A stretch of 41,634 nt of DNA, taken from the IMG/VR virus record IMGVR_UViG_3300009285_000027; one strand, written 5' to 3'. This stretch comes from a virus. Shown here one piece after another: positions 38,563 through 40,714 of the stretch. How positions within the stretch are numbered: position 1 is the first letter of the stretch; each line of letters starts with the position of its first letter. The position numbers and the translations under genes are program-made. The notes under the pieces are model-generated. The model saw nothing but the letters and a program-made list of their open reading frames with translations, ran no database searches and was not told the origin of the DNA.

Positions 38563-39227
38563 TTTGTCATCCCTTTCGTAAGCTGCTTGATCTGTGCGCC
38601 CGCGTCCAGTTGCGCGCGCTTTTCCCGTACATACTCCTTGACTTCTGGAAGCATGGCTGTTTTCATGCGCTCGCGTGCGATCACTTCCCGATATGCGTCT
38701 GAAAAGCGCGCCCGATCCGCGGCGGGGTTGTCAGTCAGGATGGCCTCCCGCCCGCCCAGGAGTTTCACTGTCTCAGTCACAGCGGGGTGCGCGTATGTTT
38801 CCCGGTATCCGCCCGCGTCGCAAATGGAGCATTCGTCCACGTGGAGGCTGTAATCCCGCAGCACCTTTCCATAACCCCCATTCGGGTTCATGGCATTGTC
38901 GCGCAAGCGCGCGCCGGTCTCACAAAAGCGCGCCTCCTGTATCAGATTGGCGGAGATGACCATGCCCCAGGCCTCGGCAGGGGTTGGAATTCCAAGTGCC
39001 AGCATTTGCAAGTCCATCGCGGTTTCGCGAAGTTTGCCGGGGGCGGGAAAGAATGTCTCAACGCTCAAATACTGTTCAACCGCTGCCTCCACTGTTTCGA
39101 TGGGCAGGTCCGCCAGAACGTCCGTAAACATATCCACCACCGCGCGGGCGGAGCGATCTGTGATGGGCGAATTCGGCAGATATTGGAGCCGCAAAATCTG
39201 AGTTGAAATTTCGTCACGCGTTGCCAT
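38559..39227 (-). CDS. Putative replicative-helicase loader (G39P-like N-terminus)
   Basis: ORF 38559..39311. The ATG at 39227 follows GGAAGGAA. ILRLQYLPNS...VDMFTDVLADLPIETVEAAVEQYL...FFPAPGKLRE resembles the loader-of-G40P family. Positioned after the initiator gene. Confidence 0.5.
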   Translation of the reverse strand: MATRDEISTQILRLQYLPNSPITDRSARAVVDMFTDVLADLPIETVEAAVEQYLSVETFFPAPGKLRETAMDLQMLALGIPTPAEAWGMVISANLIQEARFCETGARLRDNAMNPNGGYGKVLRDYSLHVDECSICDAGGYRETYAHPAVTETVKLLGGREAILTDNPAADRARFSDAYREVIARERMKTAMLPEVKEYVREKRAQLDAGAQIKQLTKGMTK

Positions 39228-39948
39228 TGACCACCATTCCTTCCTGCTGCATGTAGCGTTCGAGTGGAGTGAGACCGTCAACACTGAATTTTTGCGCCTT
39301 CCAATTTCCATTGACCGGAATTTGTCCCGCCTCTGCCCATTCGAGCCACGCCAAAGAATTCGGGTTATAGCCTTTGGAGCACCACGCCTTATAAAAACCT
39401 AAAAGATCATCACGGAGGGCTTCGTGTCCAAGCCGCATTGAAACTTTTTGAATACTGGAAACAACATCATCATAAAGAACAGTATTTGGGTATCTCCCAC
39501 GGACTTCTCGGAAGAGTTTGATTTCGGGGGGCGTGGGTGGTTTGGCGCTTGCGCCTATAATTTCTTTAGAGTGTTTTTTTATTCTTTCTTTAACCCCTAC
39601 TTGTGATTCATTTTCTGTTACAGTCTGATTCATTTTCTGAATCAGTGGTGATTCAAAATTTGAATCACTAACAATTGCTCTCCAAACGGTTGTGTTCTGT
39701 CCATCTGTGATCTTTTCAATAAGTCCACGCTTTACGGCCGCTTCTGCGCCTTTAGATACACTAGCGGTGTTCATCCCGATTGCCTCTGCTAGTTTACGAG
39801 TAGAGATTTTTATTTCGTCTCTATGATAGCCAAAGGTGAGACGGCAAATGTAAAGCACTACCTTTAGTTCGCATTCGTCCATGTCTTTCATTACATCAAA
39901 AAGACTGTTTGGGGTTTGGGTATAGGTTTGTTTCTCAAAACCGCTCAT
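39214..39948 (-). CDS. Replication initiator (lambda O-like, N-terminal winged-helix)
   Basis: ORF 39214..39984. The ATG at 39948 follows AGGAG. TQTPNSLFD...ECELKVVLYICRLTFGYHRDEIKISTRKLAEAIGMNTASVSKG resembles the replication protein O N-terminal pattern. Iterons lie inside the gene. Confidence 0.7.
   Translation of the reverse strand: MSGFEKQTYTQTPNSLFDVMKDMDECELKVVLYICRLTFGYHRDEIKISTRKLAEAIGMNTASVSKGAEAAVKRGLIEKITDGQNTTVWRAIVSDSNFESPLIQKMNQTVTENESQVGVKERIKKHSKEIIGASAKPPTPPEIKLFREVRGRYPNTVLYDDVVSSIQKVSMRLGHEALRDDLLGFYKAWCSKGYNPNSLAWLEWAEAGQIPVNGNWKAQKFSVDGLTPLERYMQQEGMVVNGNA
39604..39667. other. Putative origin of replication: five TGATTCA/TGAATCA iterons inside the initiator gene
   Basis: tgattca occurs at 39604, 39626 and 39649, and tgaatca at 39638 and 39661. 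A 14-bp direct repeat tgattcattttctg occurs twice. An AT-rich tract lies at 39560-39600. The iterons fall in the inter-domain linker codons, as in lambda ori. Confidence 0.5.
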
Positions 39949-40259
39949 TTTCCATGCTCCTGAGAACCTCCCCGCCGTTTTCACCTGCGCTTCCGTGCAT
40001 AGCTACTCAGGTTACTCACGGCGGGGCGTCCCCGCCGCCGTCAGTCCGCTTCATCAAGTTGGCGAACACCCTTAGGACTGCCATTTATTCGCCGGCTGGC
40101 TATGTGCCGTCACGCGCGGCGGGGAGGGGGATAACGGGCGGGAGGATCAACCTCCGTTTGCGTGTGTCGGATGGGCAGATAGCCTCACACTTGGATTCTC
40201 TGTCTGCTTGGACGCTAGTACGCGTCTAGCGCCGCCGCCCGTATCTTTATGGTAGGTAC

Positions 40260-40347
40260 AAAAAACTCACCTGCTTTGGTCTGCCTGCGCCTGTGGCTGA
40301 CTCCCGGAATGGTATAGGAGGGCGACAGGCAGACCAAAAAAGGTGAG
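40260..40347 (-). terminator. Long-hairpin intrinsic terminator ending the immediate-early leftward transcript
   Basis: Stems ctcacc/ggtgag, tttggtctgcctg/caggcagaccaaa (13 bp), cgcc/ggcg and ctcc/ggag. On the minus strand the hairpin is followed by UUUUUU (plus-strand a-run 40260-40265). Confidence 0.75.
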
Positions 40348-40395
40348 CCTTACCATTCCACTTGCTATTATGCGCCAGCCACTGCGCTTACGTTC
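40260..40395 (-). ncRNA. Candidate ~135-nt structured RNA (promoter to terminator), or an antitermination-controlled leader
   Basis: Bounded by the promoter at 40402-40430 and the terminator at 40260-40347. A 9-nt segment GGAAUGGUA just 5' of the hairpin is complementary to the apical loop UACCAUUCC. Confidence 0.45.
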
Positions 40396-40401
40396 TATAA
40401 C

Positions 40402-40430
40402 ATCATAAGGGTTTCCGCGGCGAAAGTCAA
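40402..40430 (-). promoter_or_regulatory. Near-consensus sigma70 promoter
   Basis: The minus strand has TTGACT (40430-40425), a 17-nt spacer and TATGAT (40407-40402). Confidence 0.55.
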
Positions 40431-40462
40431 GTACCAATTTCCGCGCCATCTGTACTCACACG

Positions 40463-40714
40463 TCAGACGCGCGGCAGGTGGCACTTGTTGCATTCCACTG
40501 TCCCGTCCCGTTTGATGGTGGCGGCATAATAGGTTTTGTCGCACTCACAAAACTTAGGAGGCTCTTCCTGGGCGCGGCGATCCACATCCGCCTGCATTCG
40601 GTCGCGGAAAGCCTGTACCTGTTCGCGCGGCATGATGTATGCATAGGGGCCAAACGTTAGCGATAGTGATCTGCGCCAATTTTCAACCTGCTGGTCTGAC
40701 AATTTGTCTTTCAT
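40463..40714 (-). CDS. Hypothetical protein with C-terminal Cys cluster
   Basis: 83 aa with AAAGGAAAC RBS. Contains CEC...CNKC. Confidence 0.6.
   Translation of the reverse strand: MKDKLSDQQVENWRRSLSLTFGPYAYIMPREQVQAFRDRMQADVDRRAQEEPPKFCECDKTYYAATIKRDGTVECNKCHLPRV

What the first reader, a model, noticed from the sequence alone, without database searches (positions are those of the whole stretch)
40260..40430. Self-contained promoter / 135-nt structured RNA / terminator module upstream of the replication genes
On the minus strand a near-consensus promoter (TTGACT, 17 nt, TATGAT) is followed about 50 nt later by an 82-nt multi-stem hairpin containing a perfect 13-bp helix and then U6. The 9 nt just 5' of the hairpin (GGAAUGGUA) are perfectly complementary to its apical loop (UACCAUUCC). 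This predicts either a pseudoknot or an alternative fold. The module sits between the immediate-early small-gene block and the replication and recombination genes. Its arrangement resembles lambda PR'-6S RNA-tR' or a put/nut-like device. It may be an abundant small RNA, a transcription gate requiring antitermination, or an origin-activating/primer transcript. About 275 nt of GC-rich hairpins (e.g. CGGCGGGG-ACG-CCCCGCCG at 40020-40038) follow before the initiator gene.
Basis: seen in the sequence. Interest (0 to 1): 0.62.

Follow-up and report, generated by a model that had tools for sequence, protein, structure and literature searches.

The report
Two-state leader RNA before phage replication genes
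The promoter, structured RNA and terminator are real and belong to an undescribed family of phage leader RNAs that can fold either as a terminator or as an antiterminator, which probably gates transcription into the DNA-replication genes.

Summary
The promoter is TTGACT-17-TATGAT. An 82-nt hairpin with a perfect 13-bp helix follows, then U6. A 9-nt match joins the 5' flank to the apical loop.

The element is not a one-off. I found 12 further distinct homologues in uncultivated phage contigs. Each has its own sigma70-type promoter and lies at the head of the replication module. No Rfam family and no deposited phage matches it.

Covariation supports two competing folds:
- **Fold T:** small leader hairpins, a long terminator hairpin and a U-run. 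94% of cells are paired, 17 of 28 pairs show compensatory changes, and 0 of 500 shuffles do as well.
- **Fold AT:** the leader pairs with the apical loop (a:a'), with the 3' bulge (b:b') and, in some members, with the mid 3' arm. This is a nested helix. In six of six members tracked, it dominates the nascent transcript for at least part of 3'-arm synthesis.

It is hypervariable (26-31% identity among close relatives) yet stays complementary.

My best reading is a transcription attenuator for the replication operon, with a ~136-nt RNA as its terminated product. The input signal is unknown. Feedback by that small RNA in trans, as in P4 CI, is an attractive but untested idea. No transcript data could be obtained. 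This scan has not noted the element on other DNA.

The parts
40425..40430 (-). -35 box TTGACT
   Evidence: A sigma70-like promoter sits at the equivalent distance in all 13 family members; 11 of 13 match at least 9 of 12 consensus positions.
40402..40407 (-). -10 box TATGAT. The start site is predicted near 40395, which is an inference.
   Evidence: The distance from the -10 box to the hairpin base is 50 nt here and 42-74 nt across the family.
40372..40387 (-). Leader hairpin P2 (GCGC-AGUGGCUG-GCGC), present in fold T. Its loop and 3' strand form segment b (40382-40374). Its 5' strand forms segment c (40387-40384).
   Evidence: A homologous hairpin with a GUGGC-type loop occurs in relatives.
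40351..40359 (-). Segment a (GGAAUGGUA). It is single-stranded in fold T and pairs with the apical loop in fold AT.
   Evidence: I13. It covaries with a' in relatives and is hypervariable.
40266..40347 (-). Long terminator hairpin (fold T), including the perfect 13-bp helix.
   Evidence: 94% of cells paired, 17 of 28 pairs with compensatory changes, 0 of 500 shuffles.
40306..40314 (-). Segment a' (UACCAUUCC), the apical loop of the terminator hairpin.
40293..40301 (-). Segment b' (GUCAGCCAC), the 3'-side bulge of the hairpin. It pairs with b in fold AT.
   Evidence: The pair changes by subfamily: GUGGC:GCCAC, GUCACG:CGUGAC, UCACGG:CCGUGA, GUUGGCAG:CUGCCAAC.
40287..40290 (-). Segment c' (GCGC). 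It pairs with c in fold AT and overlaps the 3' strand of the 13-bp helix by one base.
   Evidence: window duplex -40.6 kcal/mol. This helix is short and is seen in only some relatives.
40260..40265 (-). U6 tract. The terminated RNA would be about 136 nt.
   Evidence: A run of 5-7 U is present in all 13 members.
39949..40259 (-). GC-rich non-coding spacer (311 nt) found only in this phage. It is not part of the conserved element.
   Evidence: no homologue in the loci, stops in all three frames, MFE -123 kcal/mol, z = -2.3. In 11 of the 12 relatives a candidate start codon for the next gene follows the U-run within about 30 nt, usually with a Shine-Dalgarno sequence.
39214..39948 (-). Replication initiator gene (Phage_rep_O, 244 aa), the first gene downstream.
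40463..40714 (-). Upstream 83-aa gene with a Cys-x-Cys...Cys-x2-Cys motif. It is not conserved next to the element in relatives.

Best explanation
The module is the promoter and leader of the phage's replication operon. The leader is a two-state RNA that works as a transcription attenuator.

**The two folds**
- In fold T, the leader forms small local hairpins. The next ~82 nt form a long hairpin followed by U6, which is an intrinsic terminator. Termination there releases an RNA of about 136 nt.
- In fold AT, the leader pairs with the terminator's apical loop (a:a'), its 3' bulge (b:b') and, in this phage, a few bases of its 3' arm (c:c'). This leaves the 5' arm looped out and the lower stem unformed, so RNA polymerase reads on into the replication initiator gene.

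**Order of events**
AT can form as soon as the loop is transcribed. T becomes the more stable fold only once the last 10-16 nt of the 3' arm are out. The outcome is therefore decided kinetically, or by a factor that blocks the leader.

**Shown**
- Both folds are conserved through compensatory changes.
- The promoter, the U-run and the position before replication genes are conserved.

**Inferred**
- That termination and read-through actually occur.
- What sets the choice between them. My preferred guess (about 1 in 4) is that the terminated RNA binds segment a of nascent leaders in trans through its exposed, phage-specific loop. That would favour termination as genome copies rise.
For: **Fold T**
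- RNAalifold on 9 sequences gives 28 pairs, 13 of them with compensatory changes.
- On a 12-row model-based alignment, 94% of cells pair and 17 of 28 pairs change on both sides. 0 of 500 shuffles reach this, and slid controls give 43-59%.

**Fold AT**
- The a:a' match is kept with unrelated sequences in 12 of 13 members. Examples are AACGAGAU/AUCUCGUU, CGGAAACA/UGUUUCCG, GAGAGACU/AGUCUCUC and ACUAAGCAG/CUGCUUAGU. In L035 it includes G.U pairs, which points to RNA rather than DNA.
- The nested b:b' helix switches sequence by subfamily.
- Cognate leader-apex duplexes beat non-cognate ones: 0 of 300,000 permutations do as well.
- On a hand-registered alignment, 93% of cells pair. There are 99 double-change cells against 30 +/- 5 in shuffles, and 0 of 500 shuffles match the observed score.

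**Folding of the nascent RNA**
- Six members were tracked through synthesis. In four, AT has probability 0.8-0.99 from the moment a' is made until about 10-16 nt before the end. In L014 it fades earlier, and in L032 it fluctuates between 0.4 and 0.9. T then takes over.
- AT is also the lowest-energy fold of the truncated transcript in most members.
- The AT-to-T barrier in a nested landscape is 17-36 kcal/mol in 10 of the 11 members whose truncated transcript folds as AT, and 13 kcal/mol in L015.

**Promoter, U-run and context**
- A sigma70-type promoter lies 42-74 nt upstream of the hairpin in all 13.
- A U-run of 5-7 is present in all 13.
- The element always heads replication or DNA-metabolism genes: Rep O-like initiators, winged-helix initiators with DnaB, or HNH followed by Rep.
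- L032 and L039 share the RNA, the Shine-Dalgarno sequence and the ATG, then continue into different initiator genes. This fits control at the level of transcription rather than of one specific gene.

**Strand**
- Model scores are 104-138 bits on the sense strand and 16-34 bits on the other strand.
Against:
- No input signal has been identified.
- No leader sequence is conserved across all 13 members that would mark a ligand or protein site.
- One member (L026) has only a weak, shifted a:a' helix.
- In L016 the b:b' helix is weak or not nested.
- Nine of the 13 members were found with exact motifs from the lower stem. Invariance of CCUUUUUUGG/CCAAAGCAG among those nine is therefore by construction.
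- The AT helices were registered by hand, so the percentage paired is partly by construction. The shuffles and permutations are the fair control.
- A pseudoknot combining the lower terminator stem with a:a' alone is sterically tight but not excluded.
Confidence: 0.6

Rival explanations
1. It is a free-standing small-RNA gene. The ~136-nt terminated RNA is the product that matters and acts in trans on some other phage or host target. The leader-apex complementarity is then only intramolecular architecture, either a pseudoknot or a folding intermediate, and not a switch for downstream genes.
For: The element has a strong own promoter and a strong terminator. The apical loop and 3' bulge are exposed in fold T. 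A pseudoknot of the lower stem with a:a' is sterically just possible by my own geometric reasoning.
Against: No second site complementary to the loop recurs in any locus; the only consistent partner is the RNA's own 5' flank. The next gene's start usually follows the U-run within 10-30 nt in the same direction with no other promoter in between, so that gene depends on read-through. The full AT fold (a + b + c) cannot coexist with the lower stem.
Confidence: 0.15
2. It is a protein-dependent or polymerase-modifying antitermination site of the lambda Q (PR'-6S-tR'), lambda N/nut or HK022 put type. A phage factor or the RNA itself would make RNA polymerase resistant to the terminator, and the short RNA would be a by-product.
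For: The layout is the same: promoter, short RNA, terminator, then an operon. Several relatives have a small GNRA-loop hairpin near the 5' end that recalls boxB.
Against: That GNRA hairpin is missing in the window and its loop is not conserved. No neighbouring protein matches an antiterminator family. Upstream genes differ in every locus. The covarying antiterminator helix makes such a factor unnecessary.
Confidence: 0.1
3. It is a replication element: a primer or origin-activating transcript, or a single-stranded DNA hairpin used for priming.
For: It sits directly upstream of the initiator gene in every locus.
Against: No iterons or AT-rich unwinding region are conserved beside it. The RNA ends at a U-run, and the next gene's ribosome site follows. 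The two-fold design has no obvious role in priming. The G.U pairs and the sense-strand bias in model scores fit an RNA made from this promoter.
Confidence: 0.05
4. It is a leader-peptide attenuator or a small protein-coding gene overlapping the hairpin.
For: A 60-codon frame (40449-40267) spans the region, and similar open frames exist in some relatives.
Against: No frame, start codon or stop position is conserved across the 13 members, and the frame shifts between the two arms. Variation follows base pairing, not codon position. Gene callers leave the region empty.
Confidence: 0.03

Closest known systems
Classical intrinsic-terminator attenuators and riboswitch expression platforms (mutually exclusive terminator and antiterminator helices in a 5' leader)
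   Same: The order is promoter, leader, terminator with U-run, then operon. Two alternative nested folds are both kept by compensatory changes. The antiterminator forms first during transcription.
   Different: The antiterminator's 3' strand is displayed in the apical loop and a 3' bulge of an unusually long (~82 nt) terminator. It does not overlap the terminator's 5' arm. The lower 20 bp of the terminator take no part in the antiterminator. No aptamer-like conserved core, leader peptide or known protein site is present.
Satellite phage P4 CI RNA (and, from my own knowledge, the related c4 RNA of P1/P7 and CB RNA of N15)
   Same: A small RNA is encoded in the same sense in the leader of an operon that holds the replication genes, and it is complementary to a sequence just upstream in the same transcript. 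In P4, pairing with nascent RNA causes premature termination before the replication genes (as summarised in PMC4825925, section 21). The complementary segments are phage-specific.
   Different: No sequence or structure match to any Rfam family. The RNA would be made by termination, not by processing. No second complementary site downstream (seqC-like) was found. Action in trans is untested here.
IsrK of the Salmonella Gifsy-1 prophage
   Same: One promoter gives a short terminated small RNA and a read-through mRNA. The leader has alternative structures. The short form acts in trans on its own long form (PMC4825925).
   Different: IsrK controls translation of a downstream ORF, and thereby an anti-repressor, rather than terminator choice. 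It is unrelated in sequence and has a different gene context.
Antisense-RNA-driven attenuation of plasmid rep genes (pT181, pIP501/pAMbeta1; from my own knowledge)
   Same: A terminator/antiterminator choice in the leader of a replication initiator gene, set by an RNA that occupies the antiterminator partner. It would give copy-number feedback with short, variable specificity loops.
   Different: There the regulator is transcribed from the opposite strand. Here no antisense promoter was detected, and the only candidate regulator is the sense-strand terminated RNA itself.
Lambda PR'-6S RNA-tR' with Q, and nut/put sites
   Same: A promoter followed by a short terminated RNA ahead of a gene block.
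   Different: Those systems rely on a protein or on modification of RNA polymerase, not on a covarying RNA antiterminator. They gate late or early genes, not specifically the replication module. No Q or N homologue was found.

Membership tests
Intrinsic (Rho-independent) terminator | A stable hairpin immediately followed by a U-tract on the transcribed strand | tested here: met
   An 82-nt hairpin followed by U6. A U-run of 5-7 follows the hairpin in all 13 members. The simple scanner missed it because the loop exceeds its limits.
Transcription attenuator (terminator/antiterminator switch) | An alternative fold that excludes the terminator and is itself conserved | tested here: met
   The a:a' and b:b' helices covary: 0 of 500 shuffles and 0 of 300,000 permutations. 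The fold dominates nascent transcripts for at least part of synthesis in all six members tracked and in most truncated folds. That it excludes the lower stem follows from my reasoning on loop lengths plus the 1-nt overlap of c' with the 13-bp helix.
Transcription attenuator (terminator/antiterminator switch) | Regulated partial termination that controls the downstream genes | not testable with these tools
Riboswitch | A conserved ligand-binding aptamer core | tested here: not met
   No Rfam match. Leader sequences differ among the 13 members apart from the subfamily-specific GUGGC loop.
C4 / P4 CI-type phage RNAs (as represented in Rfam) | Sequence and structure match to the family model | tested here: not met
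   cmscan of the region at E up to 10, and of four homologue loci at E up to 1, returned only chance microRNA and small-RNA hits.
C4 / P4 CI-type phage RNAs | A loop complementary to sites both upstream and downstream in the same transcript | tested here: inconclusive
   The upstream site is present and covaries. No recurrent downstream site was found.
Lambda Q-type late-gene antitermination module | A Q-family protein gene next to the promoter-terminator unit | tested here: not met
   Pfam and PHROGs scans of ten neighbouring products found only the Rep O-like initiator and one family of unknown function. Upstream genes are unrelated between loci.
Lambda N / nut site | boxA plus a boxB hairpin with a conserved GNRA-like loop | tested here: not met
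   A GNRA-loop hairpin exists in some relatives but is absent from the window and variable in others. boxA was not searched for explicitly.

The most novel reading that the evidence does not exclude
The terminated ~136-nt RNA may be a sense-strand 'countertranscript'. In fold T it exposes a phage-specific address: the a' loop and the b' bulge. It would use this address to capture segment a (and b) of nascent leaders of the same phage type, block the cis antiterminator and force termination.

That would give a self-reinforcing shut-off of the replication genes that senses copy number and is specific to each phage type, so it would also act as a form of immunity or exclusion. The switch would be built only from an intrinsic terminator and its own product. 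The near-random sequence of a/a' among otherwise 75-85% identical relatives, and the two unrelated copies in one genome, fit such a need for private specificities.
Probability: 0.25. Interest if true: 0.8.

Novelty: new variant of a known kind. Interest (0 to 1): 0.66.

Why it matters
Regulatory RNAs of uncultivated phages are almost unexplored. This one is a well-supported structured RNA family with 13 distinct members and covariation for two competing folds. It matches nothing in Rfam.

It sits at a decision point of the phage life cycle, the entry into DNA replication. It is compact and portable, since different initiator genes are swapped in exactly at the ATG.

Its design is unusual: the antiterminator partners are displayed in the loop and bulge of a long terminator, next to a hypervariable 'address' helix. 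If the terminated RNA feeds back in trans, the element would be a minimal, programmable, phage-specific copy-number or immunity switch. Either way, the hypothesis is cheap to test by in vitro transcription with compensatory mutants.

Tried and rejected
- **Deposited phages:** blastn of the 478-nt intergenic region and of two homologue RNAs found nothing. Megablast of 24.7 kb of the window found nothing. tblastn of the Rep protein gave one weak hit.
- **Viral contigs:** an exact 19-mer from the hairpin gave 0 hits. The Rep protein alone found no relatives.
- **Window's own genome:** none is held.
- **Identical copies:** L001-L004, from different samples, are 100% identical over the 514-nt intergenic region, so they carry no covariation information.
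- **Species genomes:** the motif scan gave only coding false positives, so there is no host clue.
- **Looser motif scans:** most hits were unrelated coding sequence.
- **MAFFT plus RNAalifold:** on truncated transcripts this did not recover fold AT, because the variable leader was misaligned. I used alignment-free duplex and permutation tests and a hand-registered alignment instead.
- **Second target:** a downstream site for the loop (P4 seqC-like) was not found. Matches to GGAATGGTA across the window are at chance level.
- **Coding or leader peptide:** rejected.
- **DNA-level operator or palindrome:** unlikely, given the G.U pairs and the strand asymmetry.
- **More distant Rep O-like loci:** 42 IMG/VR loci at 27-45% identity have no model hit. 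L008 and L017 also lack the element.

Full report
**1. The observation**

On the minus strand the sequence reads as follows:
- TTGACT (40430-40425), 17 nt, TATGAT (40407-40402).
- A leader of about 45 nt.
- An 82-nt hairpin (40347-40266) that contains a perfect 13-bp helix.
- U6 (40265-40260).

The 137-nt RNA folds at -58.5 kcal/mol with z = -4.5, and none of 200 shuffles does as well. GGAAUGGUA (40359-40351) is exactly complementary to the apical loop UACCAUUCC (40314-40306) (I13). The promoter is the only sigma70-like site in the 3 kb scanned.

The element lies in a gap of about 514 nt. Upstream is an 83-aa gene. Downstream is a Rep O-like initiator gene (Pfam PF04492; ATG at 39948). Gene callers leave the gap empty.

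**2. Not a known RNA, not a known phage**

Rfam gave nothing at gathering thresholds over the whole window. At E up to 10 on the region it gave only chance microRNA-type hits, and the same held for four homologue loci. There are no tRNA or tmRNA genes.

The window has no nucleotide relative among 50,697 deposited phages. The same phage occurs in several metagenomes, and the four contigs that span the intergenic region are 100% identical over it, so they carry no information on variation.

**3. Homologues**

- **First homologue.** Contigs carrying related Rep proteins yielded L014, which is 69% identical over the RNA. It shows many compensatory changes. Its flank-loop complementarity uses a different sequence, AACGAGAU/AUCUCGUU.
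- **Motif scans.** Scans of viral and metagenome contigs with motifs shared by the window and L014 added L018, L021a, L026, L032 (identical in RNA to L039), L034, L035 and L040.
- **Model search.** A covariance model built on these nine then found four much more divergent members: L015, L021b, L007 and L016. They lie in intergenic gaps of loci that I had fetched for Rep homology or, for L021b, for the first copy. They are therefore independent of the motifs used in the scans.
- **Limits of the family.** Forty-two loci with more distant Rep relatives have no hit. The family looks confined to a narrow lineage.

**4. What is conserved**

All 13 distinct members share these features:
- A sigma70-type promoter. 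It matches 7-12 of 12 consensus positions, and 11 of 13 members match at least 9. The -10 box lies 42-74 nt before the hairpin base.
- One or two small leader hairpins.
- A short A-rich linker.
- A hairpin of about 74-105 nt between its paired ends.
- A run of 5-7 U.

The predicted RNAs are 113-164 nt long.

In 11 of the 12 relatives a candidate start codon for the next gene follows within about 30 nt of the U-run, usually preceded by a Shine-Dalgarno sequence. That gene, or the one after it, is a replication protein. The cases are:
- a Rep O-like initiator;
- a winged-helix initiator followed by a DnaB-like helicase;
- a small HNH endonuclease followed by Rep;
- a pyrimidine-dimer glycosylase followed by a Rep-like protein.

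Upstream genes are unrelated small proteins.

L032 and L039 are identical through the RNA, the Shine-Dalgarno sequence and the ATG. They then continue into different initiator genes.

No reading frame is conserved across the element.

**5. Fold T (terminator)**

RNAalifold on nine sequences predicts 28 pairs, 13 of them with compensatory changes. I then counted pairs on a model-based alignment of 12 rows; one row is a reverse-strand hit that I could not exclude. The result was:
- 94% of cells paired.
- 17 of 28 pairs with changes on both sides.
- 0 of 500 shuffles reaching the observed values.
- 43-59% paired when partners are slid by 1-3 columns.

G.U pairs, and model scores of 104-138 bits on the sense strand against 16-34 bits on the other strand, show that the structure belongs to the strand transcribed from the promoter.

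**6. Fold AT (antiterminator)**

I folded transcripts of increasing length for six members. In all six, a:a' forms once the loop is transcribed.
- In the window, L018, L021a and L035 it stays at probability 0.8-0.99 until about 10-16 nt before the 3' end.
- In L014 it fades earlier.
- In L032 it fluctuates between 0.4 and 0.9.

After that point the terminator takes over in every case.

The lowest-energy fold of truncated transcripts shows that a:a' is only the inner helix of a longer nested pairing. The loop and 3' strand of leader hairpin P2 (segment b) pair with the conserved 3' bulge of the terminator (b'). In the window, the 5' strand of P2 (c) also pairs with GCGC in the 3' arm (c').

The b:b' pair changes by subfamily:

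| Members | b : b' |
|---|---|
| window, L014, L018, L035 | GUGGC : GCCAC |
| L040 | GUGGC : GCCGC (with a G.U pair) |
| L026, L032 | GUCACG : CGUGAC |
| L021a | UCACGG : CCGUGA |
| L034 | UGUGGAAAG : CUUUCCACA |
| L015 | GUUGGCAG : CUGCCAAC |
| L021b | GUUUGGCGGC : GCCGCCAAGC |
| L007 | UGUGGUAG : CUACCACA |

Leader-apex duplex energies are -16 to -40 kcal/mol. Cognate combinations beat non-cognate ones: the true assignment was best among 200,000 permutations with 9 members and 300,000 with 13. For a:a' alone, P is about 1e-5.

I also built a hand-registered alignment from 8-nt windows anchored at the inner ends of the helices, joined by artificial spacers. On it:
- 93% of cells pair.
- There are 99 double-change cells against 30 +/- 5 in shuffles.
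- The covariation score is 1.26 against 0.25.
- 0 of 500 shuffles match the observed score.

The percentage paired is partly by construction, because I chose the segments. The shuffles and permutations are the fair test.

Exceptions:
- L026 has only a weak a:a' that is shifted to the 3' side of the loop.
- In L016, b:b' is weak or not nested.

**7. Are the two folds exclusive?**

This part is reasoning, not a tool result.
- In AT, the 5' arm of the terminator is enclosed as a loop.
- The linker from a to the hairpin base is only about 0-3 nt in most members, 5-7 nt in L015 and L016, and 11 nt in L034.
- The chain leaves c'/b' directly into the 3' strand of the 13-bp helix, with a one-base overlap in the window.
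- A rod of roughly 25 bp (AT) and a rod of roughly 20 bp (the lower terminator stem) cannot both form with such short connectors.
- A pseudoknot of the lower stem with a:a' alone is tight but not excluded. It would need about 11 nt to span about 20 bp.

In a nested-structure landscape the AT-to-T barrier is 17-36 kcal/mol in 10 of the 11 members whose truncated transcript folds as AT, and 13 kcal/mol in L015. AT, once formed, should therefore outlast the polymerase's stay at the U-run. Full-length T is more stable (-43 to -62 against -25 to -49 kcal/mol).

**8. Hypervariable address**

Among the six closest relatives:

| Segment | Mean pairwise identity |
|---|---|
| Terminator arms | 77-85% |
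| b and b' | 75-83% |
| a and a' | 26-31% (random level) |

Despite this, a and a' always remain complementary. There are two possible reasons.
- One is selection for private specificities, as in antisense control loops.
- The other is that a and a' are the only segments not constrained by two alternative pairings.

One complete 46-kb phage carries two copies 2.4 kb apart with unrelated a/a' and b/b'.

**9. Interpretation**

The simplest reading is that this is the promoter and attenuator leader of the replication operon. The same terminator also faces transcripts arriving from the early genes upstream.

- No protein partner is conserved beside the element.
- No aptamer-like core exists.
- No leader peptide exists.

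That leaves kinetic control, an unlinked factor, or the RNA itself.

The last option has precedents. P4 CI RNA pairs with complementary sequences in its own leader and terminates transcription before the replication genes. IsrK acts in trans on its own read-through form (PMC4825925, section 21 and results). I rate this trans model at about 0.25. It is not shown here.

**10. Limits**
- There are no expression data.
- The host is unknown. Earlier notes of this scan suggest a groundwater phage of Anaerolineae, with no integrase. I did not test this.
- Nine members were found through exact motifs.
- The AT register was set by hand.

The 311-nt GC-rich spacer between the U-run and the Rep start is peculiar to this phage. 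It has no detectable relative and no usable reading frame.

Noticed in passing
window 39949-40259 (minus strand): A 311-nt GC-rich non-coding spacer lies between the U-run and the Rep start codon. No relative has it; there a candidate start for the next gene usually follows within about 30 nt. All three frames contain stops, no locus holds a homologue, and the MFE is -123 kcal/mol (z = -2.3). It may be a long structured 5' UTR, an origin region or a decayed insert.
   Followed up: partly
window 40438-40445 and 40412-40419: The direct repeat CGCGGAAA (minus strand) brackets the -35 box at a spacing of 26 nt. It could be an operator for a regulator of this promoter. The equivalent region of L014, the one relative where I looked, shows no such repeat.
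   Followed up: no
L014:2486-2806, L018:8438-8875 (minus), L040:362-805; also L017:2657-3001: Small HNH endonuclease genes sit directly between the RNA element and the Rep gene in three relatives. The 'empty' gap upstream of Rep in L017 looks, from a by-eye translation, like an uncalled HNH gene. This looks like a favoured insertion point for homing-type endonucleases.
   Followed up: partly
L032 versus L039 (element at L032:972-1135 and L039:1463-1622, minus strand): The two contigs are identical over the compared 110 nt upstream of the hairpin, the RNA, the Shine-Dalgarno sequence and the ATG. They then diverge into different initiator genes (a winged-helix type and a Rep O type). The mosaic joint lies exactly at the start codon.
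   Followed up: partly
L021:306-459 and L021:2776-2933 (G002, complete 46,245-bp phage): One genome has two copies of the element 2.4 kb apart, with unrelated a/a' and b/b' sequences. The first precedes a PAPS-reductase-like gene. A DnaB-like gene lies about 0.8 kb downstream of the second.
   Followed up: partly
L026:9191-9350 (minus strand): The core of the apical loop, GAUUUC, is the same as its 5' flank rather than its complement, as if the loop had been inverted. The antiterminator there seems to use GGAAUU on the 3' side of the loop instead.
   Followed up: no
L016:~1525-1595: A tRNA-like sequence, with an acceptor stem and a GGGAGUUCGAUUCUCCC T-arm, lies in an intergenic gap upstream of the element. 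I did not check it with ARAGORN.
   Followed up: no
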